From contig JABANN010000096.1 of assembly GCA_013115125.1 (NCBI GenBank), positions 1 to 64,000 on the forward strand: a DNA stretch of 64,000 nucleotides. Reading direction: 5' to 3'. This DNA comes from Perkinsus olseni. Taxonomy: Eukaryota. The notes beneath the pieces were generated by a model, which was not told the origin of the DNA, made no database searches, and saw nothing but the letters and a program-made list of their open reading frames with translations. Positions 789-61,564 of the stretch are shown piece after piece. The position numbers were made by a program, and so were the translations under genes. The first letter of the stretch is position 1. Every line of letters begins with the position of its first letter.

Positions 789-1827
789 GCTTTCTGGTAG
801 CAGCTCCTTGTTCGATAGTCGCTACAGTTTGAGACCCTATTCACACTGGTAACGGTTGGTTATGAGGTACATAGTATCTACTGGTACGGTCTATCATGTT
901 ATCCGGTAGTGTAGACGGATGACTGTAACTAGAGGAGTTCGACGCAGAAGTACAGGCGCGTTACCTCCTTCTGGTCTGGAAGCTCCTTGACGCATAGGAA
1001 CTTATGTATCAGGCCTGTGCACGGTGCTGATGATTGTTGCCTGTGGTCTTACATTCAAGTCTACCTGCTCGGTTCTCTGTTCTCCGTATTTGAGTCCCAG
1101 AAGCGCCTCCCCGGAGGAACAGCCTATTTTCGTGGACTCTCTGGCCCACGCTTTGCTCTGTGTTTTCTTTCTTCCACTCCCTGGTGAACGACTATCGGCT
1201 GCAATCTCGACTTTGCGATTAGGATTTTGTTGCGGTTATCATCGTCTGGAGGACGACTAAAGGTCGTCGACAACGACTCTGACGACTTGATGGTCCTCAC
1301 TGGTGAACTTCTTAACCACAATGGCCACGTGGGGTTCCCACGGTGGGGATGACGTTCGCCTGAGAGGCCGACCACGACTGCGACGTTTCCGTTTATGTGG
1401 TGCTTCGACGGTGACATTGGCAATATGAGGGTTTTGTGCGGCAGCGGAAGGCCTGCCTGCGGGAGTTTCGGCTATGTCTTACGCCCTGTTCATCCTGTCG
1501 AACGGTTCGGTTTACATGTTGAATGGTCACTGTTGATTGCATGTCGGTGATGCAGCCTGATGACGTTTTGACAAAACGGTTTTGTCGACCAGGGGACGCA
1601 TGCTGCTCCGCAAACTGAAGAGGGCCTCTTCAAGAGGCTGGTGAGCCAGTAGGTGCTCACATTCGCGAGCTGACCTGCTACGGTAAGCGTGAGTCGGCAT
1701 GCCCCGCGTATATCTTATTATGGACGACTGACTTCGTGTACTAAGATACGAATATCGGATATGGGTTTTGAGCCATGACGCTATGATGTGCTTGTGCTGC
1801 GCGAACCCGAGTTTCGAGGGGACGAGG

Positions 1828-2191
1828 TGTTACGGCTGCAAGTTGCACCCTATTGTGCGAAACTGGCTTCGCTTCGCCTGCATGAACCTCAGCTCACTTT
1901 TGGCCTAAATTGGTGCACAGCTATGTGCATGCGTGCAGCTTGAGGGGCTGGCTTTTGTGATAATTGGAGGCTTTGAGGCCCTCGGAGGGCTATCTTCCGA
2001 TGATGGAAGGTCGGTCCTGGGAAGATTAGGGTTGGACTATTGGTTCTTCTCACTTACGCACAGTCATTTAGATTGTGTGAGTTGTTACCTCTGCTATTGG
2101 TACTCAGTCGCTGAATCATTCTCGTAGATCTTTTTGCCTGCTAGGCTACTCTTCGATTGTCGTTGTGTTTCTCTAGTAGTGGTAGGTAACA
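1828..2191 (+). repeat. 3' LTR
   Basis: TGTTA...TAACA termini; preceded by a polypurine tract; 3' half matches the 5' LTR. Confidence 0.8.
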
Positions 2192-3311
2192 AATTGTGTC
2201 ACTGTCTAGCTAGCACGCCTGCGTCATCCTGATTCGAAAAAATCTGCCCAATAGATTGACCTCGATCTCAGTTAATGCTCGAAACGTACTTAAGCCGCGG
2301 GAGTCCTGGAATCACCAGTTTTTTGCAACTCCGGCTAAGGCGAACCGCCTCAGTTGACTTCGAGCTTGCGGAGGAAAGGGAATCGCCTCTCGTAAGGTGC
2401 AAGCCCCGAGCTTTTCTCGTTATGTTCAGCGACAAGCCTACTTTCAAACTCTTCATAGTAACGACAGTTTGTATCAATGGGTTACTCATTGATCCTCCCT
2501 TCCGGCTGCTCAAAAAGTCATTGATTTCTGAGAAACATTTCAATTTGCTAGTTACAATGTCATCGTTGTCAGCTAACAAATTGTTAGTAATAATCCTCCA
2601 CTGTTAGTAGCAAGTTCAGTCCAGGGTGTCAGCTTGAAGGCAATCAAACTCTTTGTTATGGAAGAAGATGTAAGTATCATTGTTGTCACTACGGCTAGTA
2701 ATCTCAGAGTGTAGATAGATGCGTTGTTCTTAGTAAGAACTTCTTACTCCTTACTGGCATAGCTTGACTGTTGCTTTATAGCGGATGATATGATAAAGAG
2801 CTTTTTTACCACCCATCAGTCGTGGTGTTTGTCTGTAGTCGTCTCTCCTCAGTTCTAACTTCGGAACTCGACATAGGGAGTCGGGAGGCCAAGTAAAGAG
2901 GGACCACGCGCTGACTTGGCGCGATTGCGGGCCGCTAGCTAATATCACTCATCTGTCTACTTCATCTACCGCGCACAACGTCACGCTGTCTCCTTCTCAA
3001 CGATTCCACCACATTGTCCTAGTGCTGTAGGGCTGTATATCAATGAACTACTGCAGCACTCTTGGCTTCGAGCTCAGGATATTTCCTTTCTGGAAGTTTC
3101 CAGCGAGCTCAAAAAATAAGTCTACGCACTACGGTCACAAAATGATTAAACTCACGACAAGTGCTCACCATACCTACAGCAAGCCAAGCAACTGCCTTAC
3201 CACCTGTTCAACCTTCGAATAGTGGTTTCTCATTCTATGCGTGAGAGAATTCGAACCTACCCGCCCACAACCGAGAGACCTAGGTCGCGGGGAGATTGCT
3301 GAGACCTGGGT

Positions 3312-4110
3312 AGGTATGCGGATCCTGATCCATGAATCTGTGCGATGATCCGAAAACACTATTGATCCGGCTTCGTGAACCAGATCACACCAAGATCCGA
3401 AAGGTCTGATCCAGATCCCGCAATAACGGTTCTGATGCGTGATTTCTGATCCTGAACCTTGATGCATGAACCGGAATCTTGATCCACGATCCTGATACGC
3501 GATTCGTGATCCAGATCACGCGTGATCCAGATTTTTGATCCTGATCCTCGATCCGTGAGACAAATTCGTGATCCGTGATCCGTGGATCACTCGCCTGAGA
3601 AATTCTCGGCCTCGTCGAGAAATTTCGGTGATCCATGATCCACTAGCTCAGTGGATCAAGGTAGGTGATCCGGATCATCCAAAGGTACGAGTGCATGATC
3701 CGAAAATCGTCTCACGCACAGAATCACTCTTTTGTGACATGTTATAGAGGCCCGATCCTGTCGGGCTGTTTAGCTCAGTGTCGATCGATACGTGGCGAAT
3801 GAGCCAAGAGAGCCAGACTCGCAACGCTTCGCCTAAGCGCGCCAAATTCTAAGGCCTACGTGCTCCGATCCGTGGGACCTGATCCGTCGACTCCCTCAGC
3901 TGAGTCATAAACAAGTATTCTGATACTCAAATATGGGATCCACGTGCGATCTGATCCATGGATAGTGATTCGGAAACCGTGGATCGCCCACTTGATCGTG
4001 GTAAACGGTACTTGAGACAAAACTCGGGGAAATGGTGGAAAGAATCAAGACCTGATCCACCCGTCTGATTTTCTTCTCAAGATCAGCCATGGATCAGGAT
4101 CCGCATACCT
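3312..4110. mobile_element. Non-autonomous TIR element (MITE-like) with dense GATC subterminal repeats
   Basis: Perfect inverted repeat GGTAGGTATGCGGATCCTGATCCATG (3309-3334) vs its reverse complement (4088-4113). Candidate 8-bp TSD ACCTGGGT (3304-3311) / ACCTTGGT (4111-4118), one mismatch. The interior carries dozens of GATC/TGATCC motifs and no credible ORF. Confidence 0.75.
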
Positions 4111-5785
4111 ACCTTGGTACGTCTTGGGATCACCAGTGGCGATCTCATGCCCCAGCTCGGGCACTGTGGTTCGCTTGCCCACCAACTCGCAGTGGTTGTC
4201 ACAGTTCTGGCACCTGACCCGCCGCCCCTGTCTGGGGCAAGCCGTTTGACACAGTTCACGGCTGCTCTGAGATGCCTCACGAGTGACAATCCGCTGCGCA
4301 GGGCTCACTGCACTGTTCGGGCTTCGGGACCACCTCCTCCCAGTCCCCGCGGCTACGGTTTTAGCAGCAGTAATCCTGTATACCTGATACATACTTTACA
4401 GCAGCGCATGCACATAGATCAAGTGCAACCCTTACTTGCGCCTAAGCTATATTCGACTACTGTACTGTATTCCCGTCAATCGACCCTACGGGACGCGTTG
4501 CCTTGGGCGTGCGCAAGAACGGTGCTGCACGCGTGCGCAACACAATTGTAACGGCCGGGATAACTGTCGCAAGGGAACTAGGTAGATGAACTTTACTCAC
4601 CTTCCCTCCTTGCATTGACTATGAGCATCAACGGACAAGCAACAATTGGGTCCAGTAGACTCACCATTAATGAAAAGGCTCATTTTTCGGGTCCCCGAAT
4701 GGGGGATGACTCGAGCGCCATGCGATAGTGGCAAGAGTGGTCAGTGACCACCGGTCAGCTTGCCACCAGCCGACCGCTACTCTGATTCTATGCTGTCCAC
4801 TATGACGGCTTGGTAACCTTGAAGACAAAGCAGTTGTTGGGCTGCCTGCGCGCTCGAGATAACGCTGTGCCGGCGATTGGAATAGAGAATGAGGTTTAGC
4901 CGACTAGAGTTTATCAGACCGAGGAGGTCGGGCAATGTGATGCCTTTAGAGCAATGAGCTAATCGCCACGGTTATAACATGACGGGGAAGCACTGCAAGT
5001 GCAACGACTAAATCTCTGAGCTGGGGCAATGAGGTTGGCGAAGAGTAGATGCATACCAGCGAATGAAGTTAGTTTCACCTTGAAGGTGTGGGCGCGCCTC
5101 AGCGTGATCAAGATGGGAACTCAACATGAGAGGGGAATAGGAGCGGCCAAGAGCTGCGACAACAGACAGTTTAGCTCTACGGTTCACACGTGAACGATCG
5201 CGGGCTGAACTCGACAATGACTGTGTGAGGTACATCATCGTGATATTACTGGCTGGATGATGTCTCCCCCTTTATGCTTGGTTGCTCGTTATAAACTTCA
5301 TGACTTTCGTACCATACCTCACCCTCTTCGTCAGCTCTGGCATCAGTACTGCTATCACAGTCTTCGTCGTTGGCTACAGGAGTGCCTGCAGACTTATTCA
5401 GGCCTCCGCGATTGATTAGAGTCCCACCTCTCGCCAAGGTCCGTCATCCCTGTAAATGCCAATCCCCACGCAGGCCACCCCAGATGAGCAGACCACCTCC
5501 AACTCTCTGACGAGTGCAGGCCTCCGCCTTGTGTTCATCACACTGGTGAGATACGACCACTGAGGCTCAGTGACTGAGCCCATTGCCGATATCTTCCCCT
5601 GCCAGCTTGCCTCGACCGGCCTCCTCTACTGGCTCGCCCGTCGCCGGGCACTCCGGCCAGGTGGTGATGACAACAGCGAGAGAAAGTAGGCTAGTTTCAC
5701 CGGTCCCGCATGCATTCTCTCAATGAGCGATGGTCCGTCAGCTTACGTAGATTCACCGTTCCATAGCATACCACTCTTCGTTCAG

Positions 5786-8700
5786 ATCGGGCAGGAGCTG
5801 GTGTTCGCTTCACCCCTTGCAAAGAAGATACCTAATAGTCTATGTCCTGGCCATGCTCAGTGATTGGCTCCAGGGGCCGTAGGCTCTTGTCTTTCATCTA
5901 CACCAACGTAGCCACCTCCATCAGATACGTTTACGCCCTGTACGAGTCCTATGGCTTCGATCGCCACCAGAACGCCGGCCTCTTCGTTTGTGGCTTCGCT
6001 GGCTCCATGCTCTTGGGGACCTTCATAGGCAGCTTGGCCGACAGGTCTGATCAACGTACGCAAACACTCCTTGCACGACAGTCACCAGGTGCGGCCGTAA
6101 GCGCTTCTGCCTCCTGTACTGCGGCCTCTACGTACTCTCCTGCCTGACAAAGCACGTCCCCTCCTACCCGGTCCTCATGCTTGGCCGTCTTCTAGGAGGT
6201 ATGGCGACCAGCCTCCTCTTTAGGTAGGAGCAGCCATTGCCCTTGCCGCTGGACACTGCCGTTGTGTTAGTGTCTTCGATGCATGGTTCATCTGCGAGGC
6301 TTCGACTACCAATCAGGCTGACCTAATCCCTCAGACCTTCGGTATCGCAGTGGCTCTCAACTCTATCACAGCCATTTTCGCTGGAGGTACCTGCAAGCCA
6401 GCCCTTGTAGCGTCACCCTTGCCTTTCAGTCTTGGCCCAGGCTAGCGTATCGATCGCCCCCATGCAGCCATGGACTCCTTTCTTCAATGTCGCTGGGTGA
6501 GTTGCCGGCGCCGGTGAAAATCCCACCGAGCGTATATGTCTATCAGCATGACAATGTTATCATCCAAACCCGACAAAAGCTACCCTGATAAGAGCCTGGT
6601 ATTTATGAATACAGCGGAAGCAAATACTACAAGCGCTAGGGGATAAGTGGATTGTGCCCCTGCACCATCACAGAGATTGAGTGTTGATAGCCGGCAAATT
6701 GCCATTGTCATAATATGGCATAATAAATTATATACGCGACGTTTGACCGCAGCCTGCCCTATGGAGAGATTACTGTCGGAGGGAGGTCTTTTGTGTAAGG
6801 TACTGCAGCCCATTCGACCTGTCCATTATATCACTGCTGTTCACAGCCGTTGGCATTCAAACAACGTGGAGGGAGAACTTCGGGGCGGCGGCGAGTGGAA
6901 CGACGGAGAAGAGCGAGGGCAGCGGCGGCACACAACTATCATGGCGATCACTACAGCAGTGGACCCAAGGTGATGGTCTAATTACTTGGTATGATATAGA
7001 TGAAATTATAATTCTGATAGACAAGGATAACAGAATACCATCCCCGATGATTCCATGTCATGGTTTATTTACCAACTATTCACCGCATCATATTCAATAC
7101 CCCCATGATCGATAAATTCTAACTTTCTCGAGAGGTTCACTGCGGTGTCCAAATGAGGGGCCATCATCCACGATTATGGACCATCCTCACACATCTGAGC
7201 ACTTCCAACACCACGGTAGTTGTACAAAGACGGGGGTCCTACGATATTCACGCCGCCCCCTGCCCCTCCCAATCATCAACTCGCGAAGAAGAGCACAGAC
7301 GGGGTTTCTCGTTTATCGAGAAAGGGCTTTTTTCGGATTCTGGTCGGAATGGCAGTCCGTAACGTGAAGACGATTCGTCCCATGACTGCACAACTTCTTG
7401 ACACAAGATGGTTGGAACCGCTACTGGTTGCCTGCTCACCAAGCCGCTGCTGATACAGTCGTGCAATATCCAAAAATGAGGCCACTATCTGTTGCCTGGG
7501 AATCGTACAATACTGGCCTCAATTTAATTTTATAATATTCGACCGCCGTTCTCGTGCCCTCACATGTCAGGATAGTTGTCTCGCTTGAGCACGTCGCATG
7601 CCTTTCGTCGCACACTCTATTCCCCAGGTCTCCTGCAATCCCTCCGATCCGATCGTTCCATCATTCCCCTAGGCAGCGTCCAGGCACTCTATGAGGCCTC
7701 CATGTGAGAGAACTCTTCCTCCTCCTCATCCCCGACCCTCCATAGCACAGGTATATATTCGTGTTCATGTGGACTCCTGCACTGGAGCAGGCCAATGGTG
7801 GTGCAGCTGCATCACTGGGCCTGATCTTCGCCTGCTTCATGACGGCCTGCACTGCGGGGTCCCAACTCTTCCGGTAAGCCGGCCACCATGAGCGATCCTC
7901 ATGAGTGGCGGTAGGTACCTCAGCACTCCTTCCATCACCACCAGAGCCCTCTCCTCAGCTGCTATCCTCCGGCTGGTGTGCTTAGCTGCCCTTGTATCGC
8001 AGGGAATTGTATTCATGTAAGCCCTCCGGTGTCACCATGCTGTCACCAATCCGCCATCGTTGTGCTACGGGTTTGCAGACTATAATAGCCTGGGCAGTCG
8101 TACGGAGATGAGCATCCGCATCAATCTTGCTCTGAAATGGTAAACTCAACCACTTGACGAGAAGCAGCTCTCCTCACCTGTGTGAAGGCTGTCCCAATGG
8201 TGTTGCCGGAGTACTTGCCCGGGATGAACCCCGAGTAGCCAGCGATGCACCTGGTGGGCCTGGCGTCCCGTCTAGGAGGCCATTCGCCAGGCCAGTACAC
8301 TTTGGGACTGGATAGTGTCAACGATCGCTAGCTAGCTAGCTTCGCTCCGCTCACTGTCCACCGAGCACCGAGCGATACATAGTGTCGTTACGCTTTACAT
8401 TCGATACCTCTGCTTCGTTAGTGAGTGTGCAGTCTCGGGCGCACTCGACCCTCTATTGGCCTTGACCAGGTTCCCGTATTCCGTGTGGACTGTGTTGCTA
8501 TCTTTCCTCACGTTTGAGGCCTCGGTCGGTGTCTACTACCCCTCAATGGGAACGCTCAAAGCCGAGATTGTTCCGGAGTCCCGCCGAGCTACGATATACA
8601 ACTTGTTTCGGGTAAGCCTGAGAACTGTGCAAGGTGGCGTCCTCGTGTGAAAGTGGAGACATGAGCTGCCTTCAATCACGCGAACAGATCCGTATATGAT

Positions 8701-9166
8701 CTGTCCTACGGTGCTCCGGTGATTTGTACTTTTTTCTGCTTTGGCGAGTATTAACTCACGTCGCATACCAATGGGACGCTTTTCATGTGCACGTCGTCGT
8801 CTCCTTGTTGTCGCAACATGCTTCTCCAACCTTTTTTATGAACCACCGACTCAGTGGCGATGACCACTTCGAGTACCATCGTTTAGGTGTTGGTTATAAT
8901 ACTCTAGGTATAAGAAACTCAAATGGCCTCATACCACCATTTGAGAGCATCTCTTGGCGTGTGGTATCATCCCCTGCCAGGTGCCGCTGAACCTACTCGT
9001 CATCGGCGCTCTCCTTGCCAAGCTGGAGGTGGCGGAGGCATTCGGCGTCACATCACTGCTCTTGGCCCTTGCCCTGGCCCTCAGCCTTCGGATAACACCA
9101 ACCGCTAACACAGTGAGTTCAGCTACCCGCCTCCCTCTGCTGCGTCGGGGCCAGAAGGCTACCTGA
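5786..9166 (+). CDS. MFS transporter, MFSD5/MOT2 (molybdate-anion transporter) family; multi-exon, start not located, possibly disrupted
   Basis: Spliced exons read RRYLIVYVLAMLSDWLQGP|YVYALYESYGF...GTFIGSLADR|CGRKRFCLLYC...LMLGRLLGGMATSLLF|SVFDAW...|SVQALYEASM|YIFVFMWTPALE...GLIFACFM|...FEASVGVYYPSMGTLKAEIVPESRRATIYNLFR|VPLNLLVI...stop 9166. These are hallmark MFSD5 motifs. I could not find the first exon or the central W.ENYG exon. Confidence 0.85.
8083..8259 (+). repeat. 177-bp identical copy of 10165-10341 inside an intron of the MFS gene
   Basis: Direct base-by-base match at offset 2082; includes an intron of the donor gene. Confidence 0.95.
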
Positions 9167-10123
9167 TGTACAAATCGTGACGCTTGTTGCTCGGGCGCGG
9201 TCCTCCACCATCTCCCGTTTTCGTCTGTTGTTTGACCTTTATAATTGTCCTGGTCTTTTTTCTGACACCACTAGCGATTGATTCCTGTGCACGATTCCAC
9301 CAATTCTGGCTAGCGCCTCAACCTTAGCACGGTTGGGATACTGAACGCTCCTGTTGCGTTGAAACCCTCAGGCTCATCATTCTCAGACGGACAGCGGAAA
9401 TGGTGACACCACCGATGATGCAATATTAGCGGAATGATGGACGAGCATGATGCAAACTGAGTTGTCGTGCGAGTGCGGTACAGAGTGGCTTGCGTCTTGC
9501 GAGTTCACGGACTCCATGGGCGGTGTGCCCCCCAGCCTACCGAAAACAGTATAGCTGAAGCGAGGCGACTCGGCAATAACGCAACAATTCGATGATGGTG
9601 ATAATCACTCCTACTAGGAATTCCCTAGTACGAATGTTGATACTACCATCTGAGGTCTGTAATACGATCAATGCGGCTCCGTAATTTCCGGACCAACAGA
9701 CTAGCATAGACAACGTTTTCTCTGTGTAAAATTGGATTGGACTTGGCTGTCATTTGGAGTTGCCTAGTGATGCCTCCTGTGAGAGGAAGGGAAAGCCTAC
9801 CCGACTAAGGCTACCTTGAGAGGTTACTAAGCAAACCAGAGTCCACCAGAGCTCCCTCGATCACTAATCAACACTCTACCCCAATGAAGGGGTCTTTGAT
9901 TTCGTAGCTGTAACGTCAACAGCCGAATCGCCAGCTTCACTTGCTTTGTGATCTACACTCGTCGTGCAATGGATGGTTTTGGACCGTAGGCAAATCGAGT
10001 CCTTCTTTTCGCCTATCGGTGGTAAGTTTCCACTGGAGATCAACTCAAAGCTCAGCTGTCGTCACATCGAACGTCGAGTCCATTTCACACAGCATGTTGA
10101 TGATATTTGATAGATAGTCAGAA

Positions 10124-10807: not shown

Positions 10808-11086
10808 TGGGCTACTGAATGCTGATATAAGATACGATCTGTTTATCCCGCAGACTCTCGGTTCAATAGATGGGAGATTGGCAAAACTCGGGCGTTCCCA
10901 AAGAGGCTAATACTCAACGGAGTATCCTGGCACCCAGCTCGACCAATAACAACATCACAGTTGAGACAAGTTATCAACAACAGCTGGGGGAGGTATCCTT
11001 CCCCTCACGCAGCCCAGGAAGGGTGGCGATCGGGTCTGTCCTCATCATTGTTAACAACGCAAGCCGCTGTGGGTATTCTAATCATC

Positions 11087-50135: not shown

Positions 50136-50223
50136 TTGACGGCTTGAGTGAGGGTCTAGAACTCCCCGGTCACCGGAATACTATATGTCTTTTCTTCTGT
50201 TATGTTTCGAGATCTCCTACTAA

Positions 50224-51159: not shown

Positions 51160-51260
51160 TCAGATGGAAGGTCGAAAGTAAGAGGCCCCAATGCAATATT
51201 CGGAGAGCGATGAGCAATTGAGCGTCTAGTAGTGCTAGCCTACTATGAATCGGAGGAAAA
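51160..51260 (+). repeat. ~100-bp diverged direct repeat (second copy ~52428-52530)
   Basis: Shared AGATGGA.GGTCGAAAG, TGCAATATTC, TAGT.CTAGCCTA. The second copy carries a 14-bp footprint insertion. Confidence 0.7.
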
Positions 51261-53224
51261 GCGCATGGGGCTTCTTCGTAGGTGACACCTCAGTCCGAGA
51301 GTTTCTCTCTGATATCGCCTGACTTGGGCACCCGCGCCTTCTCATGCGTTTGATATCTACTTTCCCACACCATTTACCCCTCAGCGTTTGGCGTGCTGCT
51401 GCTTCCGGCACTCACGGTTTCCTTGGGGAGCCAAAACTCTGCTTCCTCTCGCCTCTCCTACATCTATCGTGAATATCCCTCTTGTAAAAGACCGTTTTTA
51501 GTGTCACGTTATGGTTGAGAATGATGACGAGATCGCTCCTTTGGGAAGCTGGCCGTGCTTGCCGCGACTTGCCGTACTCGGAGTACATTCACGGGCTGGT
51601 AGGCAGTGACTCACCACCCACCCACCAGATTTGATAATCGCTCTACATACACACCCCTCCGTACATAAAGCCCACAGGAACTGGGCACATCGGCGTTGGC
51701 GACTCGCCGTTGGCGAGAGCTCGACTAACTTAATGACCGGCGTTGGACTATAGGCTCATACACACAGGAGACTCCACAGAGAGCCCGGCTCAACCCAAAC
51801 TCAGAGCCTCCTACGACGTACGAGAGGTTGATTTCTGAGCTCTTCAACTGCTATTGCGTTTAGATTGAGAACGTTCATTGGACATAGGGAGGCTTGGTTG
51901 GTGTTCGAGGAGACGAAAGAATGACCTTGACAACTTTGACCACGAGTTGCACTCGGGGTCTGAAGACCGCTGGCGGTAGCCACTTCTCCCACGGTCGGTT
52001 TCCGACGAGCAGCCTTCGGAAGAGAAGGCTGCCTATCAGGTTGCCAACACCTGTGGTACCAGCAAATGAATAATCTCGGTAACAGTCTTCTCAGGCCAGG
52101 AAGACCTCGGGTCCACCGAGACAGTATCCAGGATTCCTGAATCAGGAAATCAGCCGAATTCTCACCGTAGCTCATCTAGCGGGCCGGGTGTTAGTGGAAC
52201 TTCCACTGTGGAAGCATCAGTCGTTTTTCCCTCGTGACTTCGGCGAAGTCACTTCGCGCTTCTCTAGTCAACTACATTGCTTTGGGTCCGGGCTGCGGTC
52301 TTTCTACCCGAGACATTCGTCCGTGGTTGACGGTAAACCGGCGGGTTTAAGCTGCTACCGATGCAGCTAACTCAGTTATGATGCAATTTACTCCCCGATG
52401 GCGAGTAGCATTGGGTTGAAGGAGACCAAGATGGATGGTCGAAAGAAGGAGGCTCCACTCAGTGGAGTCCACTGCAATATTCCGGGATCTTTGAACAGTT
52501 GACCTGCTTGTAGTACTAGCCTAATATAAACGCATTTCTGCCATGTTCGCGGAGTGCACCTTCTGGACGACAGAGTGTGAATTCTCTAGGCACAGAAACG
52601 CCTTATCATGCCAAACGATCGACAGTTGCGCGTCTCGATGTGCGGGGGCGGCGCTAGTCAAACGGGTGGCTAAGCTTGGAGAGGAGCCCTGTGACGTCGA
52701 ACATCGATTTGGCTCTACTGGCCAAGACGTTCACAGCGATCTTGAAATTGTGACTCGCTCTGGCATTGTCATCACCATGACGACTCGACGAGTCATTATG
52801 ACGAGCCCCCCCCCTTTCTGCCAGGAGGCTGCCGACTCGGCAGTGCCGAGTACAGTCAGAGCCGCTCAAGCCGTGTAGGTCGCGTACTGCAAAGTCTGCC
52901 CAGTGAACCAGATGCACTATAATAACAACTACCTCCATTGCTGCTGCGTACCCACCTTGCTCTATGCTCGCCTTTGCTCGTTATACGTACGTTCGTCCCA
53001 GCAGACACGTGCGTTCCTCGCCGTGCTATTGAACATACGTTCACCCGTCATCCAGAACGAGGTCAGTTCTCTCCGAACTCCTCTCGACTCCGGTTTACTC
53101 TTCTTTGAGCCCCGTCTCAAATAGCCATACTGTACTGAGTTATAGTGCAGCAGTGGTAGCAGCTCCTTGCTCTCGGAGCGAGGGATACCCTTTAACTCGC
53201 GCATACGTTCTTCAATGGTGACCA

Positions 53225-53861
53225 TTGAATGGTCTCGACTACCTCCTTTCTCGCCTGTATTGTATTATTTGTCGGTTCCTGCGCCGCAGGACCTGCGGTG
53301 AAAATATAATTAGGATGCCCATATCCAGGATTCTAACTACGGGAAAGCCGCCAGAGCTACTTATGGTGACCCCTATAAAGGTCGACGGTCTAGATATGTA
53401 CGCCCAGGTGGACACCGGAAGTTCTCACACACAGTTGGTATGGCGGAAATGGTATGAGAGCGTTCGTACAGGAGGGTGTCATGATCTCTTCTACACGTGC
53501 TATCACTGCGCCCCAACTAAATGCCAAAGGGCTCCTACCACCACGACTATCCATTATGTTGATGGGTCTTCATTGACCGTATAATACGGTCAATTAGCCG
53601 TGTTTGGGAATACGGTCCGTATTCCCACATTCTGGAGGCTTCTCTTTTCACGGCGCAGCTGCCAAAGGCATGAAGTTCGCCTTGGCCACTGGAGCTTCAC
53701 GTGGGCCGTGGGCGGCTATTGGCCTCGGGTCGCGAAGCGTCAAAGCACCGTATAAGCGCTTTGTCGATCAGCTACGATCCCAGCATCTGATCGACAGCGG
53801 AGTCTTCTCGCTGTACTTATCGTCTGGAGGAGCTCCCAGCGGTGAGCTCATAATCGGAGGG
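53225..53861 (+). pseudogene. Aspartic protease pseudogene, paralog of 49068-50135
   Basis: MYAQVDTGSSHTQLVWRKWYES...CHDLFYTCYHC, then FPHSGGF...WAAIGLG...RFVDQL...GELIIGG in another frame. A 40-bp insertion (53583-53622) causes a stop and a frameshift. The C-terminal lobe is missing and there is no ATG at the homologous start. Confidence 0.93.
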
Positions 53862-56800
53862 GTCCCCTGTGCTGATTCCCACCACTGTGGTGGGAATCAG
53901 CTGCACAGCTAGCGCTAGTGTTAGACTCTGTCTCTGCACACGAGCGTTCGAACTAGTTGGGCTCATTTCCGTTCGGGTGAGACGGCTGTGTCCTTGCGGA
54001 GGCACGCGGGTCGCGCCGTCCGGTTTCCGGTGAACCGTTCCCCGTTCCAGTCTTATCCGCCTCACCCCTCAACGCCCTGTGAGCAATGTTAAATTCCTCC
54101 TTTTTCACTCTAGTCGTATTGTGAAGATCGCTTTGTGATTGCTGTCCCTATGGAGTCGCTTCCCCTTGTGTTACGCTGATATATCTAACCTCGCGCTACT
54201 ACTGTAATTGTAATCTATAAGTTAGGGTCAGGCTAACCAAGTCTATCTTGTGTTAACTGAATAAGTGGGATTGCCCACAAGGGCTCGTACACAGTCGGGT
54301 GTCACGAGTCTGATTAATGGTAATTATTTCAACTCTTGCGTTGGCAGTTCGTTCATCAGCCAACTATAAACTCAATTAACGTCCAATTGGCAAACCGGGA
54401 TCATACGGCGAAGCTTGCTAGATCCTAGGAACGCTGATTTTCGTACTGCGGAAACTCGTACTATATTGCAGTATCTTATTCCGTGTCGAGCCCCATGAAC
54501 ACCGGCCTGCCCGCTCAGCCTTCAGGAGACCAAAAGTAAACCACCAGCTCCAGTCGTCCTTAACTATCGGTCATATTGCTTTCCGTGTATCAACACTAAT
54601 CGTAAAATAATTATCCTGTGCGATAAAAGTTCTCTTCCCGAGTCTGTAACCCCGCCGTAGTTTGGCCCCCCTTTCAACTCGACACAGCTCTGTTAAAGAA
54701 AGCAGACACGTTCCTGACTTCAACTGCTACCGGCATGCGCAGCTCGAGAATTCAGGAACGGAATTATGCCGCTTATTACTCTAGCGGCGGAAAGGCCTAT
54801 TCCACGTAGCGGCGGTCCGAAGGGAGAAAATTCACTGGAAGGTAGCAGCTCCGTCTTGTGGAGTAGTGAGCCACTCACAGGGGACTCGGCTGGTTTGTCT
54901 GAGCAAGAGAGCACGGAGCTAGCCAGGCAAGTAGAGGAGCTCAAGGCTAAATGGGATAAAATAACCACAAGTGCGTTGGAGAAGTCGTTCGCTCGCATGA
55001 TCACCATTTACGCGTTACGCGCAGCGCGTGTCAAGGAATCGTGTCAAGAATATGCGATTCATCTTGTTTAGCACGCGGTCTGCATGAAAATGGGATTACC
55101 TCCTCATTGTCGTCGGAAGCACCCTGGTGTGGTTGTTAGTGTCCTTGTATCGCCATCAGAAATAAGAATGTCGTTGTGGAATTTGCATCCGCATGTGCGA
55201 GGATTAATGATAATCTTAGTGATGACGCGCCACTCGTGTATGTGCACGGTCCCTAGATGACTTTCAGTTGTGCAGGTCCTGGCCTCGAGTACGGCTGGTC
55301 GGAAAAAAATTCTCAGCTCATTCACGATGCTTGTATAGCTTCTCTAGATTCCTTGAACGATGACATAAGGACTGAACTGGACCTGACTTATAACAGTAAC
55401 AACATGGATGTAGATGGGGAGCTGGCATGAAACCACCCTCCACCTACCGTACTTCTGGAGACCTGCAAAGCCTTGAGCAACCCTTTTACTCGAACTGACG
55501 TTGAAACCACAATTCTCGACGGACAGCAGTGTCCACTTCGAGTAGCAGGAAGTTATTTCATGCTAGAAAGAGTTGAGAATGAAAAAGCACTTGCAGGAGC
55601 AGCTGTTCGGCGGCCACTATGATTTGACAGACGTTACTCTGATTGGGCAGTATCTTGAAGCATTCAACTATATCAGTCATTCACACAGCCTGCATGAATG
55701 ACTCGCAGGGTTGGGCGTTCAATGGTGGCTAGGATTTCTTGAGTAACATAGGCCTAGACTGGATCTCGCTATGTACTACAGTACCCAATGTTAATTAATC
55801 ACATGAGCAAGATCTAAACTTATTTCATAAATATTGCACTGAAGGAAACTACTTGGCCGAAAGTAATTCTCCTTGTTTTTCATACAGCTTCTCGCATTGG
55901 ACAGAACTGTAGATCAGGCCCGACCGATTCTCACTTGCAGATACAAGATCAATGGTATCAGATGGTCCCTCCGAGCCCGAGGGTTGCTATAGGGCACTCA
56001 GCGGTCTATCCGACTCTGAGTTCTACAGGGCGAATGACGATGCTCATGTCCACGCTCGGCTTGTCAGATTTCCTGTGTCGACGGAACACCAAGGAGAAAA
56101 GATTGAAGTTACGCTGAAGAACTACCCCTACGGGACTTCACGAAGGAAGTGCAATCAGGTCGCTTTCAAAGTGACCGCAGCTAAGCCCTTCACTACGGGT
56201 AGCATAGGGAGAATGTTATCCCTGAGTTGACTCTGTATGAATAGCACCCGCACTCGCTCGTCGCTGTTGATGCCCGATTAGAATGCAGCAGAAATAGATG
56301 AGAATGAGGTAGATCGGGTACTGAGTTGACAGAAAATGCGTAGAGCAGTCGGGTTAATGGGAGTGAATGGGAAAAGGCTTGTGAGGTTGGTGTCGGGGCA
56401 TGCAGAGGGTATACAACGGAGTTCGACTCGCAATATGAAAAACACCAGCGAAAAAACAATTCACTTCGCGGATACGGGTGAGCCTACATTGGACAGTGTG
56501 AAGCGCGAATCGTTCTGTTGATCGCGTTATTGTGAGGAAGGGGGATGCGAATACTCCAGCGGTAAACGACACGTTCTCTTGACTGTTCTCACGAACTCTT
56601 GGCTAATGATAATATTCCCTGGTGGCAATATTAGAGCCACGGTTGTACATTTTAGCTACTGAATACAACATTGAGAATTTAGTTTCATGCCGAGTTGATG
56701 AACATTGTCGATCACGATCTATGAGAATCGCCCAAATCTCAGGCGATGGGTCGGCAATGGTGACATCACGAAAATTGAAGACTGGCCAACACACGGCCGT

Positions 56801-57820
56801 GTTCGATATGACCCCGGAGGTATCACGGGATGCAGGCAATTTCCTTTTGAAGCACGCAGCACGCAATGCAGTGCTTCGAGGAGATTCCTGGGGCTCTTGT
56901 GGCAGTTGTGATGAGCAGGTACCACAGTTTATCACATTCTCCCGGTCTCACGATGAAGCAACTACCAGGCCAGACGCAATTCACCCGTAAGACCATCCTT
57001 GGTAGCCTGTGCACTGTCTCAACAACTAATATAATATAATAAGGCAATAATATAATATTAATATTATGGGCAATAATATAATAACTAAGCAATATTAATA
57101 TTGCTCCACACACGATTGGTCCAAGGTGTGTCATCGCTAGAGCACACTCATCATCTCTTACCGTCATCTTTTTATCCTTTTTACCTCTCGTCCGTCCATA
57201 TACGGACCCTGTCTGGTTGTTATCGCAGTAGTGCAACGAGATAGTGAACCTGCCTGTCCTGAAATATACAGTATTCTAATTTGTCCTGACATCTTCTATT
57301 TCACAACCTGCGTTCTATGTTTTGTAGAATATCTGGCACGAAGCTTGACCTCCAAATATAGTTTCCCGTTGATCCGAACAGAAGCCTTTCCCCTCCTAGG
57401 TATCGTACATCCAGGTCACTACTTTCTTCACAAGAGAAACTTCGATCGGGTGGGCATTGTTGCGAGCCCGTCTGAACTGTAGAAAATCTAGTGTCACGTC
57501 GCTGATGTTCTTTCAGGCTTTCATCACGACGACTATGATATCCACAGTCTCGTCGAAGACCTTCGAAGTTGCTCTGAGGTAAAGCCCTTCCAAAGTCGGG
57601 AGTTGACATGAAAGTGCGTACAGGCAATTATCGATTCGACTAGTCGAAGACTCAGTGACAGCATCCTAGGTCGAAGGCGACGTGAGGAGGTATCGGAAAC
57701 GACCCCGCGCGATAATACTGACGAAGCCTTCGGGGTAGAGGCCTACCTTCGAGAGCTGAGGGCTATCATTCGTCCACTCGGTGGGAAGAGCTAGGCGGTT
57801 TCTCGGCTATTCCGCTACAG

Positions 57821-59470
57821 GGATGATATCCCCTCAAGCGGCATCTGCATTGGAGGTGATTGTGAAAGGGATTCTCTTGAATTCTGACTGGTAAAGATTT
57901 TTAATGACAGACGCGAGTCCGAGGCTTCATTTGATGGTGTTACTGCAGGGCAATCAGTGATCGGAATATAACTATAAAGGAGCTCGGTGACTGTGCGGAA
58001 GAGATTGATGAGCTGCGGGGAGCCATGCAGGTCGGGTTGCAAACAGCATCGAGCTTCTCGGCACTTATGGCGCCTTCCTTATTCTCCAGGGTTGCTATAA
58101 TTGAGCGATCGATCGATCTCACTGTTCAAACACTCAATAACATACACTCGGTTCGTCGTGGTCATAGAGGCATCCTCATACATCTGTCGAAGTAGCACTT
58201 CCATCGCTACCTTTGTCTCAGACGATAAAGGAGGCGCACCGTAGGGACCTCGCTATTGTGGGCAAGGAAAGAGCGGCGGTGGAGCGGAAGCTTGAGCTGT
58301 AGAGCTCGCGCCGGTCTTTTTCAGAGAATTCCGCACTTCACCGACCTGCGGGTCCTAGTATTTCTTCTATCCTCATCAGGGTCGAGCAAGAGAAGGCTTC
58401 GCTGAGGCAGAGTATAGAGGAGCTGAAGCTGGAGTTAGCCCAGCTGGCGCCAAATAGCCAGGATGTCGACAAGGTAGCCGTGGTGGTAGTCTGTCTAATA
58501 CCAATTGCCGGTGGAAACTCATCTACATGTTACAAAGAGATCTGTCGAGCGCTCCTACGAGCGAAGGCGACTCTCATTCTGGCTAGTGCAACGAATGACA
58601 TCAGGACTTTAGCGAGCTACTGTTGTGAAATGTCACGTCAGTGATTTATATTGTTATATCCGCGCAGCACCAGCGACGAATCAGGAGTATAGCGCGTAGC
58701 GTCTCAGGACTGCCCCTCCTGATGATGCTCGACCTTGGAAAGAGAACAGAAAGAATGCTTTCAAATACCGCTTCCATGATTGCATGTCGCCGAATCTGTT
58801 TAGAATTTTTTTTGATCATTACGAGCTTACTCGGTTCCAGCTCCACTAAATTAGCGACACTAGTTAACATGAGTGGTTTGTCACTCCTACGTATTCAGGT
58901 GAAATCCCTGATGGATGATTTTTCCAAGTTGATCGCTGCATTTGGAGATGAGGGAGCTAGGCACGGAAAGATCCTGGAGGACTTCAAAGTCTTCGCTCAC
59001 AAAATGGCCAGTGTATGCTTCTTCGACGGGGCCCTCGGGAAGACGTCGATTCGCCCCCGCCCATCCATCAGGACACCTCGACTAATATCGCTGCTGCCAG
59101 AGCGGAGGATAAGGAGGGTGACGGCGGAAGACAGGTAGCTGACGATCCTCTTTCTTTCGAGTTTTTCCGGGGGTCTCGCACTCGCTCCCGTTTTGAAGGA
59201 CGTGTCATTGACAAGGGCTGTGCGCTGAGGCGTTCAACAAAAAAGCTAGCATTAATGTTGTGTCCATGATCCAGACCAAACAATCTGGCGGCCAGATTCT
59301 GGCCTCGTGTCAGCTGCGATGCCTCTCTCTCGAATAGTAGTTGTCCTTGTTACTGAGCAAGACTTAGTGAGAGTCAGTGAATTATAACGAGGGTCGAAGA
59401 AATATGGAAGCCGCCACTGTATCCTCAGTTGCAGAGCTACCAGAAGGGGAGGCTCGTTCAATTACAATCG
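57821..59470 (+). CDS. Hypothetical multi-exon coiled-coil protein (limits uncertain)
   Basis: AG/GT-bounded segments KELGDCAEEIDELRGAMQ, TIKEAHRRDLAIVGKERAAVERKLEL, VEQEKASLRQSIEELKLELAQL, VKSLMDDFSKLIAAF. Confidence 0.5.
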
Positions 59471-61564
59471 GGCGAGCTGCTCCTCCGGCACTACGACAGC
59501 AGTACGAAGAGGCTTTGTGTCGGCCAGGACCCCTTCTCGCCCTCAGGGGACTTCACAAGTCAACTGTGGGAGTCAGAGCTCACCCAAGTGGACCCTAGGG
59601 CAACTCCCTGGCTGTGCCCATCCTACCTGAGGACCTTCCATCACCGGTACGTGTCTACGGGGGTCTACACATCGGTCTACTCTCTGCAGCGATCGGGCGG
59701 TCAACGAAGTTTGTCACTCATCTCAGTTACATGTGGGAGTCGCTCCCACCGATGAACGTCCATAATCTCGAGGAGCTTCTCCTGCAGATAATAGCAGATC
59801 TCCCAATGCTGAATGGGGCTCCGGTGCAGAATCCAGTGATTCCGTGTCGTCTTGACAGTCTGACAAGAACCTTATCGAACAGAGACCCAAAAGAATGACG
59901 TTGTCATTATGACATTGTCATAAGATCATTCTTTCAGAACGAGATAATTTGTATTACGATTTTCCAATATTCCTGAATCAGGAATCCTGATCACAATTAC
60001 CAACAGCATAACCACCTCATTAATATTCTCACAATCATTGTGAAAATTGTGGTGAAGACTTCCGTTCAGATCCCAAAGTTTCACGACTGTATCATTGACT
60101 TCACTCTGGCGCATTCCGCCTGCCTCGAGGAAGCGGAGCTGAGGCTGTACACGATGTTTCGGTGAGAAGCTAGGGCGCCCCGCTAGTTCGGCGGGATGCC
60201 TGGTCGTCCTCAGCTCGACCCTCGCGTACCCCTTCATGCCGGAAGATGTGCTCTCCGTTCCGCCAGCCGTGCATCTCCTCCGCCGTCTACTGAGAGTCTC
60301 TCCCCTCAGCGTGGTTATCCCCTACCCGATAGCCGCTGCCTGCCTGGCCTGTCTCAAGAGAAGTAGGTGCTCAGCAAATACAACCATCCCGACGGTTTGA
60401 TGGGAGAGATCGAGTTCCATGCAGGTATTCAAGGCGACAAGACCCTCCAAAGCGTTATACTTGAGAACGAGGAGATAGAAATCACTGAACTGTGAGCTTT
60501 CCGCTGAAGTCCTAGTTTCTAGACTATCACCTACCGCCAGCTCGTGTGGTACGAATTTCCGCTGTACGATCTGAAGTTTTACGACGTGATATTTTGTGCA
60601 TCGAAAACGTTCGAAGCGATTCTGCGCGTAATTCTGATTTACGCGATTTACTTGATTTAAGTGGATTCTGGAACTTAACCAATCCAAGGTTCGTAGTTTA
60701 AAACCTCTGGTCTCCGAGATGGGGCAAGGCGCGGTACCGCGCTAGCGTCAGAAAGCTCGACAGGACCTCACGACGGTAGCGAGGGTAACGCGAAGGCAAA
60801 CTGTGCCGAGGCCGAAGGCGATGCTGCAAGTGGCAATCGCGGTTCGTCAGGCACAAGTTGCCTCTCGAAGACCTCGATTAAAAAAAGAAGAGAGCGTCGA
60901 GAGGACGACGTTCGACTTCCGAGCCGTTATCAAGCACCTGATAACTCAAGCCGGTAGTCGGCGTACTAACTTGCTAGCGTGGGGGGGCGCAGTCGGGACA
61001 CTAGGTGTCCCGCTGTGCACACAATATAACACGGCATCTCTCCGCGCCGGTTTTAACCTAGATGAACTACCCGTTTATCCGCTGAATTAATTGCTAATAG
61101 ATGGATCTTTGTGCTTTGACAGTTTGTTCGCTGAGCGTGCGGGTTGTCTTTCCGTCAGTTTATTTCGGAGCGAAATGGGGCAGAAAAATTGCTGTCTCGT
61201 AGGCTTTACACCGCTTAAAGCCTACGACCACTGAAAACGATTAAATTACACGAGGTCAAATATGGATAACATCTGAGTAATGCTCTCTAGCGTCACGCTA
61301 TAAATGAGCAGACGCAACAAGAGGGCAGAGCGAACACTCAGATCTGGCTCTGCGCGTACATGGGGAAAATCGACACAGCCGCTTCGACAAAGCGTGCGGA
61401 TCTTCGAGGTGACATCCACTCTGCCCCACGTTCTGAGGTGTCCGGATCGGGGCTCCGTACGATGTGTCCGACATAGCAAAAACTTGGTATGTAAGACAAC
61501 TATTGTGCAAAATAGGAACACCTCTACATAGTGGCCACTGTACTGCTTGAGTCAACCAGGTTTG

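What the first reader, a model, noticed from the sequence alone, without database searches (positions are those of the whole stretch)
1564..59991. Window-wide recurrent 22-bp scar with the geometry of hAT-type hairpin excision footprints
Seen: for an 8-mer X-core6-Y, the pattern is X-core, comp(Y), revcomp(core), comp(X), core-Y. It occurs perfectly at 1564-1585 (CGTTTTG A CAAAAC G GTTTTGT), 2726-2747 (GTTCTTA G TAAGAA C TTCTTAC), 5558-5579 (CACTGAG G CTCAGT G ACTGAGC), 44913-44934 (GTCATGT G ACATGA C TCATGTC), 51109-51130 (ATCAACA C TGTTGA T TCAACAG), 52453-52474 (CTCCACT C AGTGGA G TCCACTG) and 59970-59991 (TTCCTGA A TCAGGA A TCCTGAT). One-mismatch copies start at 42563, 44842, 47530, 50930, 52127 and 59901. 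The 8-mers mostly differ, so no repeat finder would group them. Fourteen positions are constrained, so a uniform-base expectation is about 64000/4^14, or ~2e-4 perfect hits per window. Established: hAT transposases make 8-bp TSDs, nick one base into the flank and leave hairpins on flanking DNA, giving palindromes centred on the complement of the last TSD base (related to RAG P-nucleotides). Inference: both hairpins are opened and joined through the shared inverted TSD as a microhomology, leaving a stereotyped +14-bp scar. At roughly one per 4-5 kb this would be a major, unannotated mutational process here and a readout of this organism's end-joining pathway.
Basis: partly seen in the sequence, partly recalled or inferred. 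Interest (0 to 1): 0.9.

Follow-up and report, generated by a model that had tools for sequence, protein, structure and literature searches.

The report
Transposon excision scars littering a Perkinsus genome
This stretch of a Perkinsus (oyster and clam parasite) genome is peppered with one stereotyped 22-base scar, best read as what remains each time a cut-and-paste (hAT-like) transposon jumped in and out again, so it records both heavy transposon traffic and how the cell rejoins broken DNA.

Summary
The pattern W[1-7] + revcomp(W) + W[2-8] (W is an 8-mer) occurs perfectly 15 times. It occurs 31 times with up to 1 mismatch and 41 times with up to 2 (0.5 expected). It never occurs for target lengths 6, 7 or 9-12. 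Only palindromes with one unpaired central base are enriched; even ones are not. The two spacer bases follow the complement rule in 15 of 18 sites. The rebuilt target 8-mers give a palindromic consensus nTCnnGAn, which contains the hAT nTnnnnAn.

Three longer variants keep both inverted copies of W, plus inverted flank and filler. This shows two separate hairpin-derived tails. One of these variants (53577-53616) is polymorphic. Contigs from four public runs carry the allele without these 40 bases, which is the predicted empty site with a single W.

The window also holds a 799-bp element with terminal inverted repeats, subterminal repeats and an 8-bp target duplication (7 of 8).

Protein identity places the window in Perkinsus.

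Best reading: excision footprints with hAT-type chemistry, joined by in-register annealing of the two tails. No transposase and no filled site were seen, and the whole genome could not be scanned.

The parts
1564..1585 (.). perfect 22-bp scar, W=CGTTTTGT
2726..2747 (.). perfect 22-bp scar, W=GTTCTTAC
5558..5579 (.). perfect 22-bp scar, W=CACTGAGC
44913..44934 (.). perfect 22-bp scar, W=GTCATGTC
51109..51130 (.). perfect 22-bp scar, W=ATCAACAG
52193..52214 (.). perfect 22-bp scar, W=AGTGGAAG (new). It lies in the stretch 52181-52598, for which a contig 40 nt shorter also exists
52236..52257 (.). perfect 22-bp scar, W=GACTTCGC (new)
52453..52474 (.). perfect 22-bp scar, W=CTCCACTG
52829..52850 (.). 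perfect 22-bp scar, W=CTGCCGAG (new)
53213..53234 (.). perfect 22-bp scar, W=CAATGGTC (new)
53277..53298 (.). perfect 22-bp scar, W=TCCTGCGG (new). The divergent run X7's contig is 17 nt shorter, all of it deletions, over 53228-53576. This is compatible with an empty site but was not seen base by base
59283..59304 (.). perfect 22-bp scar, W=ATCTGGCC (new). X7's contig over 59076-59454 has too few gaps (8) to lack 14 nt, so the scar is probably shared
59970..59991 (.). perfect 22-bp scar, W=TTCCTGAT, a full match to the consensus nTCnnGAn
1328..63054 (.). 16 one-mismatch scars, starting at 1328, 2573, 19392, 22180, 42563, 43083, 44245, 44842, 45013, 46662, 47530, 47953, 50930, 52127, 59901 and 63033 (each 22 bp). 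Also 10 two-mismatch scars, starting at 4737, 9607, 22793, 40322, 45159, 50812, 51696, 54022, 55009 and 59894
   Evidence: The mismatches are spread over the left, middle and right copies (13/9/6) and the two ends (8)
53572..53627 (.). unmerged variant scar, W=ACCGTATT. It has two odd palindromes (arms 11 and 11, centres 53583 and 53616) that run past the 8-mer into inverted flank, with about 10 nt of filler between them. The 40 bases 53577-53616 are absent from an alternative allele
   Evidence: The joint 53576->53617 appears in contigs of X1, X2, X6 and X7
46194..46277 (.). unmerged variant scar, W=ATGAAACA. The left palindrome has 7-nt arms (centre 46201). A 20-nt filler follows, containing (TGAAT)x3. 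The right palindrome has 24-nt arms (centre 46253), which makes a right tail of 25 nt
37626..37672 (.). unmerged variant scar, W=TCCAGGAT. The left palindrome has 13-nt arms (centre 37639), giving a 14-nt tail. A short filler follows, then a second inverted copy (7 of 8) next to the right target copy
44723..44759 (.). single long odd palindrome (arms 18, centre 44741), read as a one-sided hairpin tail. The sequence after it fits a partly resected right target copy
   Evidence: the resection is inference
53871..53901 (.). single long odd palindrome (arms 15, centre 53886); no partner copy found
63465..63499 (.). single long odd palindrome (arms 17, centre 63482); no partner copy found
3304..4118 (.). 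resident non-autonomous TIR element, 3312-4110 (799 bp). It has 23-bp perfect terminal inverted repeats and many subterminal TGATCC/GGATCA repeats. It is flanked by an 8-bp target duplication, 3304-3311 and 4111-4118, matching at 7 of 8

Best explanation
The 22-bp motifs are footprints left when cut-and-paste DNA transposons excised.

Proposed sequence of events:
1. An element inserts and duplicates an 8-bp target W, giving W-element-W.
2. At excision the transposase nicks each flank one base short of the element. The free 3'-OH attacks the other strand, so each flank ends in a covalent hairpin. Its apex base is the complement of the target base next to the element. This is the chemistry known for hAT elements and for Ac/Ds footprints.
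3. Host nucleases open both hairpins on the 3' side, some distance from the apex. Tails of 11-25 nt are preserved in the variants. The left end then carries a 3' tail starting with revcomp(W), and the right end carries the complementary tail starting with W on the other strand.
4. The two tails anneal in register over these 8 bases. Flaps are trimmed and gaps filled.

The product is always W[1-7] + revcomp(W) + W[2-8], a net gain of 14 bp. It does not depend on where the hairpins were nicked, which explains the stereotypy.

When the tails fail to anneal they are joined with filler, giving the 'unmerged' variants with two inverted copies.

Scars then decay by point mutation. The roughly flat mismatch spectrum suggests a long-running, roughly steady process.

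Shown: the geometry, the length specificity, the odd-palindrome excess, the complement rule, the target consensus, the unmerged variants, one empty allele, and a resident 8-bp-TSD element.

Inferred: the identity of the transposase, the side and enzymes of hairpin opening, and microhomology-mediated joining.
For: - Counts by target length: 15 perfect copies at k=8, against 0 in 60 simulations, and none at k=6, 7 or 9-12. With up to 1 mismatch there are 31 at k=8 and 0 at k=7, 9, 10 and 11.
- Geometry: only one geometry among all direct-inverted-direct triples is enriched.
- Palindromes: perfect palindromes with one unpaired centre number 38 at arm 7 (3.0 expected), 11 at arm 8 (0.7 expected) and 11 at arm 9 or more (0.2 expected). 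Even palindromes number 18 (13.3 expected), 5 (2.8) and 2 (0.6).
- Complement rule: both spacers follow it in 15 of 18 sites that have perfect core, revcomp(core), core (p=6e-16).
- Target preference: among the 31 sites with up to 1 mismatch, T at position 2 or A at position 7 occurs in 30 of 62 positions, and C3/G6 in 29 of 62. Background is about 0.25 (p=6e-5 and 2e-4).
- Unmerged variants: three variants have a self-consistent W and inverted flank in their tails.
- Empty allele: the 40 bases 53577-53616 of one variant are skipped in one contig each of runs X1, X2, X6 and X7. That leaves the single-W site.
- Independent reads: exact contigs from three samples of two studies carry the scars, for example 52181-52598 and 53804-60727.
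- Resident element: it has an 8-bp duplication, 23-bp TIRs and subterminal repeats.
- Clustering: scars are clustered (chi-square 46.8, 15 df, p=4e-5), with 7 lying within 2.5 kb of the resident element. This fits local hopping.
- Literature: in passages I read, Ac/Ds footprints are palindromes centred on the complement of the base next to the transposon. Arms reach 20 nt in S. cerevisiae, and 88-89% of junctions there use microhomology (PMC5873905; PMC1978519).
Against: - No hAT transposase or any other transposase was found. Among 38 ORFs scanned against Pfam, the only hits were S1/P1 nuclease, aspartyl protease, SAM decarboxylase and a GH20 fragment.
- No allele with an element sitting at a scar's 8-mer was seen.
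- The resident element begins AGGTATG, which is not the textbook hAT terminus (recalled as YARNG), and its family copy number is unknown.
- Experimental hAT footprints are diverse (28 types among 128 events in C. albicans, PMC5873905), whereas one product dominates here. Short classical footprints show only weak excess, though the test has low power: 6-mer tandems 33 vs 15.6 expected; one filler base 10 and 6 vs 3.9; two filler bases 3 vs 1.
- A 16-kb stretch (24-40 kb) has no scar and I cannot say why.
- The empty allele could in principle be a secondary deletion through the 6-bp direct repeat.
Confidence: 0.78

Rival explanations
1. These are excision footprints, but of a different transposon superfamily that also makes duplications of about 8 bp and flank hairpins. 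Candidates are a Mutator-like element, a P-like element, Merlin, Zisupton/KDZ, or an undescribed one.
For: Mutator-like Muta1 makes 8-9-bp duplications and flank hairpins (PMC5499845). Merlin-related genes are reported in Perkinsus marinus (PMC8101967) and Dada elements too (PMC3706591). The resident element's ends are not classic hAT ends. No hAT transposase was seen.
Against: The Muta1 hairpin product was 43+43 nt, that is even, with no one-base offset. More than 90% of its excisions were precise. MULE and Merlin duplications vary between 8 and 10 bp, whereas here only 8 occurs. The T2/A7 preference is the hAT one. Dada makes 6-7-bp duplications.
Confidence: 0.13
2. The pattern is a transposon-independent mutational process, such as polymerase template switching or fold-back synthesis at breaks, that copies 8 bases from the opposite strand.
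For: Template-switch events are known to create local inverted copies (recalled, not looked up). No element was seen at any scar. The fillers in the variants look like iterative templated synthesis.
Against: Such processes give variable lengths and loops. Here the length is exactly 8, the centres are single bases obeying the complement rule, and the sites share a palindromic target consensus. By my reasoning, two flank hairpins each containing the whole 8-mer need two copies of it, which means a prior target duplication. This is inference, not a computed result.
Confidence: 0.06
3. The pattern is an artefact of library preparation, sequencing or assembly.
For: The pattern is oddly regular, and the window contains an N gap at 45814-45909.
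Against: Contigs assembled independently from short reads of three samples in two studies reproduce the scars without a difference, although two of those samples may be the assembly's own source. The scars show graded decay by point mutation. They share a target consensus. One is polymorphic with an empty allele within and between samples.
Confidence: 0.02

Closest known systems
Ac/Ds (hAT) excision footprints in plants, S. cerevisiae and C. albicans (Coen 1986 hairpin model; Weil & Kunze 2000; Yu et al. 2004; Lazarow 2012; Mielich et al. 2018, PMC5873905)
   Same: An 8-bp target duplication is retained. Palindromic (P-nucleotide) additions are centred on the complement of the base next to the element. 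Junctions use microhomology. Tails can be long, with arms up to 20 nt in yeast (passages read).
   Different: Those are experimental events at single reporter loci and give many different products. Here one product, the in-register merger of both tails (+14 bp), dominates. It is fixed at about one per 1.6 kb of natural genome in an alveolate. I did not find this exact 7+8+7 product described in the passages I read, and Yu et al. 2004 is not held.
Hermes transposition chemistry (Zhou et al. 2004, Nature 432:995; recalled, seen only in reference lists)
   Same: The flank hairpin is formed after a nick one nucleotide into the flanking DNA, which predicts odd palindromes.
   Different: That work is biochemistry on an insect element. 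Nothing is shown here about the enzyme.
P nucleotides at V(D)J coding joints (RAG hairpins opened by Artemis)
   Same: A hairpin forms on the flank, is opened off-centre, and the palindromic addition is retained in the joint.
   Different: As recalled, RAG hairpins are even and P tails are usually 1-4 nt. There is no target duplication, so no in-register merger is possible.
Genome-wide catalogues of transposon excisions, e.g. Asian vs African rice (PMC4423477, passages read)
   Same: Natural excision footprints are inferred from genome sequence.
   Different: Rice gave 94 putative excisions from 63% of two aligned genomes. Their outcomes were heterogeneous (deletions, filler), and only 9 of the transposition events were hAT. 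Here tens of scars lie in 64 kb and they can be recognised without a second genome.
Mutator-like Muta1 (PMC5499845)
   Same: It forms a flank hairpin and makes 8-9-bp duplications.
   Different: The hairpin is even (43+43 nt), excision is mostly precise, and the duplication length varies.

Membership tests
hAT-superfamily excision footprint | 8-bp target-site duplication | tested here: met
   The pattern exists only for k=8: 15 perfect and 31 with up to 1 mismatch. There are 0 at k=7 and 9-11.
hAT-superfamily excision footprint | Palindromic additions centred on the complement of the target base next to the element (flank hairpin with a one-base offset) | tested here: met
   15 of 18 sites obey the rule at both centres. 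Odd palindromes are enriched more than 10-fold and even ones are not. The rule itself is taken from PMC5873905.
hAT-superfamily excision footprint | Target preference nTnnnnAn (consensus recalled from the Ac/hobo/Hermes literature) | tested here: met
   T2/A7 occurs in 30 of 62 positions (p=6e-5), and additionally C3/G6 in 29 of 62.
hAT-superfamily excision footprint | An empty site (single 8-mer) or a filled site (element flanked by that 8-mer) at the same locus in another allele | tested here: inconclusive
   An empty allele was found for one unmerged variant (53577-53616 skipped in contigs of 4 runs). For the 22-bp scars there are only length hints: 378 nt vs 418 nt over three scars, and 17 nt missing over 53228-53576. 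No filled site was seen.
hAT-superfamily excision footprint | A hAT transposase (DDE with hAT dimerisation domain) and hAT-type elements in the same genome | not testable with these tools
   No whole genome is held. None of the 38 window ORFs scanned hit a transposase family. One 799-bp TIR element with an 8-bp duplication and subterminal repeats is present, but its superfamily is undetermined.
hAT-superfamily excision footprint | Heterogeneous junctions typical of end joining | tested here: not met
   One product dominates. Other P-nucleotide combinations show at most a weak excess. Three unmerged and at least three one-sided variants exist. This lowers 'typical hAT footprint spectrum' but not the shared chemistry.
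Mutator-like (MULE) excision footprint | Duplications of 8-10 bp (usually 9), an even flank hairpin, mostly precise excision | tested here: not met
   There are no k=9 or k=10 copies. Only odd palindromes are enriched. Muta1 properties are from PMC5499845.

The most novel reading that the evidence does not exclude
Insertion-excision cycles of hAT-like elements may be a leading source of insertions and short palindromes across the whole Perkinsus genome. Extrapolating from this window gives tens of thousands of scars. These are resolved by a nearly deterministic hairpin-opening plus microhomology-annealing pathway. The genome would then carry a dateable fossil record of transposition that can be read without any comparison genome. 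A bolder version is that the host, or a domesticated transposase, systematically purges such insertions, as a defence by excision analogous to ciliate DNA elimination.
Probability: 0.35. Interest if true: 0.8.

Novelty: new variant of a known kind. Interest (0 to 1): 0.68.

Why it matters
Transposon excision footprints are usually rare, heterogeneous and visible only by comparing genomes. Here a single, self-identifying 22-bp signature marks each event, at roughly one per 1.6 kb.

If it holds genome-wide, several things follow:
- Past cut-and-paste activity in a protist parasite could be measured, with an age spectrum read from scar decay.
- It would be a natural readout of how an alveolate opens DNA hairpins and joins ends, which appears to be by annealing 8-base tails.
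- It would be a steady source of small palindromes and +14-bp insertions that gene annotators and variant callers should recognise.
- It would give a simple way to find hAT-like activity in other genomes, by scanning for an excess of odd over even palindromes.

Tried and rejected
- Own genome: none is held, so no genome-wide scan and no search for transposase, Ku, ligase IV, Artemis/Pso2 or Pol theta was possible.
- Orthologous DNA from metagenomes: a scan with the aspartyl protease as anchor matched 74 stretches, and none was a relative. I did not use the second scan because a pattern bridging a scar would have meant typing two nearby stretches.
- Paralogues inside the window as empty-site controls: self-BLAST gave 13 alignments, and none covers a scar.
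- Strict scan for TIR elements with perfect 8-bp duplications: none found (one search timed out). The relaxed scan found one element, against 0, 0, 1, 1 and 0 in five controls.
- The ~167-bp high-copy repeat (30205-30372, 35790-35941, 48583-48749) as the source element: no convincing 8-bp duplication.
- The contig joint 51762->52915: the shorter side is only 27 nt within repeats, so I did not interpret it.
- Coding context: period-3 signal is strong only at the nuclease, the protease and the 45-46 kb repeat. Scars avoid these, but the 24-40 kb scar-free stretch is not obviously coding. The ORF overlap test was uninformative.
- Direct-repeat offset scan with 7-mers: it cannot see the scars, which repeat only 6 bases directly, and it showed a general mild excess of tandem duplications.
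- Earlier notes of this scan: nothing on this genome or on such scars.
- Literature searches for Perkinsus with hAT, palindromes or footprints found nothing describing this. Supplements were not consulted.

Full report
**Observation**

The pattern is written from an 8-mer W = X-core-Y. It reads W without its last base, then the reverse complement of W, then W without its first base, 22 bp in all.
- All seven sites given as perfect match this exactly.
- A full scan finds 15 perfect copies. The eight extra ones are at 1617, 18288, 52193, 52236, 52829, 53213, 53277 and 59283.
- The scan also finds 16 copies with one mismatch.
- Sixty second-order Markov simulations of the window never produced a perfect copy at k=8. 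They reproduced the observed counts for short targets: k=4 gave 15.5 (16 observed), k=5 gave 0.98 (2 observed), k=6 gave 0.17 (0 observed).
- There are no perfect copies for k=6, 7 or 9-12. With one mismatch allowed there are none for k=7, 9, 10 or 11.
- A blind tabulation of all 5-mer direct-inverted-direct triples within 60 bp found only this geometry enriched: 26 and 21 hits, against 3 or fewer for every other offset pair.
- Counts for 0, 1, 2, 3 and 4 mismatches are 15, 16, 10, 31 and 89. Eight simulations gave 0, 0, 0.5, 5.0 and 57.5.
- So the window holds at least 41 copies, and probably 70-95. The roughly flat spectrum is what a steady process followed by point-mutational decay would give (inference).
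- In the imperfect copies the mismatches are spread over all three parts.

**Organism**

The window is eukaryotic and has few long reading frames.
- Pfam hits are an S1/P1 nuclease (11087-12181, minus strand), an aspartyl protease (49068-50135), a split SAM decarboxylase (14249-15211) and a GH20 fragment (39384-39776).
- The nuclease is 94% and 83% identical to Perkinsus olseni proteins, 66% to P. marinus and 52% to P. chesapeaki.
- The window therefore comes from a Perkinsus, an alveolate parasite of bivalves, and not from a fungus.
- No whole genome is held.

**Is it real DNA?**

Contigs assembled from public short-read runs of three samples in two studies reproduce the scar-bearing stretches without a difference. 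Examples are 51342-52207, 52181-52598, 52974-53780 and 53804-60727. Two of those samples may be the assembly's own source; the third, X6, is not flagged as such. Graded decay, a shared target consensus and polymorphism (below) also argue against an artefact.

**Anatomy that bears on mechanism**

1. Among perfect palindromes, only those with a single unpaired central base are in excess.
   - Odd palindromes: arm 7, 38 (3.0 expected); arm 8, 11 (0.7 expected); arm 9 or more, 11 (0.2 expected).
   - Even palindromes: arm 6, 18 (13.3 expected); arm 7, 5 (2.8 expected); arm 8 or more, 2 (0.6 expected).
   - The apparent loop-3 excess is the same objects counted again.
2. Eighteen sites have perfect core, reverse-complement core and core separated by single bases. 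In 15 of them both spacers are the complements of the outer bases Y and X. Two have the complement on one side and the base itself on the other (45013, 59901). One has another base (p=6e-16 for 15 of 18).
3. Rebuilding the 8-mers of the 31 copies with up to 1 mismatch gives a palindromic preference. T at position 2 or A at position 7 occurs in 30 of 62 positions, and C at 3 or G at 6 in 29 of 62, against about 0.25 background (p=6e-5 and 2e-4). The consensus nTCnnGAn contains the hAT target motif nTnnnnAn, which I recall from the literature.
4. Three longer structures have the same logic but keep two inverted copies of W.
   - 53572-53627 (W=ACCGTATT): tails of 12 and 11 nt that continue into inverted flank, with about 10 nt of filler.
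   - 46194-46277 (W=ATGAAACA): a right tail of 25 nt and a 20-nt filler containing three TGAAT units.
   - 37626-37672 (W=TCCAGGAT): a left tail of 14 nt.
   - In each, the two palindromes independently specify the same 8-mer.
   - Three further long odd palindromes (centres 44741, 53886, 63482; arms 18, 15, 17) stand alone.

**Empty site**

Laying contigs on 46000-64000 showed a joint from 53576 to 53617 that skips 40 bases.
- It has 6 bases fitting either side and appears in one contig each of X1, X2, X6 and the divergent X7. In X7 the contig continues 246 nt beyond the joint.
- The skipped bases are exactly the added part of the first unmerged variant. What remains is window 53570-53576 followed directly by 53617 onward, which is the flank, one copy of W, and the other flank.
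- X1, X2 and X6 also hold the scar allele, so the site is polymorphic within samples.
- Perkinsus polyploidy is reported in the literature. I saw this only as search listings.
- A secondary deletion through the short direct repeat cannot be excluded. However, the structure of the longer allele is derived entirely from its flanks.

For the 22-bp scars themselves I have only lengths.
- A 378-nt contig (X1, X6) lies on the 418 nt of 52181-52598, which holds three scars. It shows 48 gap positions, which implies 44 deleted and 4 inserted; three scars would account for 42.
- X7's contig is 17 nt shorter, all of it deletions, over 53228-53576, which holds one scar.
- X7's contig over 59076-59454 has only 8 gap positions, so that scar is probably shared.
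- These lengths are compatible with empty sites but do not prove them.

**Resident element**

A relaxed scan found one TIR element, 3312-4110 (799 bp).
- It has 23-bp perfect terminal repeats and is flanked by 8-bp direct repeats matching at 7 of 8 (3304-3311 and 4111-4118). Five controls gave 0, 0, 1, 1 and 0 hits (sequence).
- It holds 24 of the window's 38 TGATCC/GGATCA motifs. This is a subterminal-repeat architecture typical of non-autonomous Ac/Ds-like, and also Mutator or CACTA, elements.
- Its termini (AGGTATG...) are not classic hAT termini, and it encodes nothing recognisable.
- Seven scars lie within 2.5 kb of it.
- Overall the scars are clustered (chi-square 46.8, 15 df, p=4e-5). 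There are 25 of 41 between 42 and 55 kb and none between 24 and 40 kb.

**Mechanism**

[quoted passage not shown] They are explained by flank hairpins that host enzymes open. In S. cerevisiae arms reach 20 nt, and 88-89% of junctions use microhomology (PMC5873905, passages; PMC1978519, passages). The one-base offset of the first nick is recalled from Zhou et al. 2004, which I did not read.

Working through the strands by hand (inference) gives the following.
- The left hairpin, opened 3' of its apex, gives a top-strand 3' tail that begins with the reverse complement of W.
- The right hairpin gives a bottom-strand 3' tail that begins with W.
- The two tails are complementary over 8 bases.
- Annealing them in register, trimming any flaps and filling in yields exactly the 22-bp product, wherever the nicks were made.
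- This explains why one product dominates. It also explains why the unmerged variants, with tails of 11-25 nt, look like the same intermediate joined without annealing.
- Two hairpins that each contain the whole 8-mer need two copies of it. A prior insertion with target duplication is therefore required, which a transposon-free process does not supply.

**Against, and open**

- No transposase was found in the window.
- No filled site was seen.
- Short classical footprints show only a weak excess: 33 vs 15.6 expected, 10 and 6 vs 3.9, and 3 vs 1. In that scan the scar at 18288 was dropped by the low-complexity filter, so it counted 14 rather than 15.
- Experimental hAT footprints are far more varied: 28 types in 128 events.
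- Mutator-like Muta1 also forms flank hairpins with 8-9-bp duplications. However, its hairpin is even (43+43 nt) and more than 90% of its excisions are precise (PMC5499845).
- Merlin and Dada elements are reported in P. marinus. I found no report of hAT there, nor of such scars, in four searches.

**Comparison and novelty**

The chemistry is the known hAT and V(D)J-like one. Three things appear new: the dominant in-register 7+8+7 product, its density (about one per 1.6 kb at up to 2 mismatches), and its occurrence in Perkinsozoa. For scale, a rice genome comparison found 94 putative excisions, heterogeneous in form, across 63% of two genomes (PMC4423477). I file this as a new variant of a known kind.

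**Verdict**

- Confidence that these are excision footprints of hAT-type chemistry is 0.78.
- The superfamily identity and the genome-wide extent remain to be shown.

Noticed in passing
window 24000-40000: A 16-kb stretch has no scar copy with up to 2 mismatches, although about 10 would be expected. It shows no strong coding periodicity and has slightly lower G+C (0.46-0.48 at 28-40 kb). The reason is unknown.
   Followed up: partly
window 45013-45034 and 59901-59922: Two otherwise perfect scars have the right-hand centre equal to X itself instead of its complement. This would fit a hairpin opened on the other side of its apex rather than a later mutation.
   Followed up: partly
window 59894-59922: Two overlapping scar copies (starts 59894 and 59901) suggest a second insertion-excision cycle into an earlier scar.
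   Followed up: no
window 30205-30372, 35790-35941, 48583-48749: A repeat of about 167 bp begins and ends with GTGCAC-type inverted termini. Contig depth there is about 50 times the single-copy level, so it is a high-copy family. At 48.6 kb it interrupts a sequence whose paralogue at 60.7 kb lacks it. No clear target duplication was seen.
   Followed up: partly
window 52611-53211 and 60424-61625: Further high-copy repeats show contig depth 16-38 times single copy. They include a 48-bp core (53102-53149) at which many contigs end.
   Followed up: no
window 45200-46310: A repetitive stretch has long open frames in several frames and strong period-3 signal. Internal duplications are 92-98% identical, and the N gap 45814-45909 lies in its middle. 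It is probably a repeat-protein gene that the assembly could not close.
   Followed up: no
window 616-788 / 2019-2191 and 8083-8267 / 10165-10349: Two pairs of 173-185-bp segments are 99% identical and lie 1.4 and 2.1 kb apart. They have no inverted ends or target duplication and their nature is unknown.
   Followed up: no
window 52181-52598 (runs X1, X6): A second contig at similar depth differs at about 9% of positions from the window's allele. This points to deeply divergent haplotypes within one isolate.
   Followed up: partly
window 14249-15211: The SAM decarboxylase gene is split over two adjacent open frames (14249-14719 and 14726-15211). This may be a short intron or a frameshift.
   Followed up: no
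window 3505-3528: A 24-bp W, revcomp(W), W-like string with one mismatch lies inside the resident element. It is made of the element's subterminal TGATCC repeats and is not a scar.
   Followed up: yes
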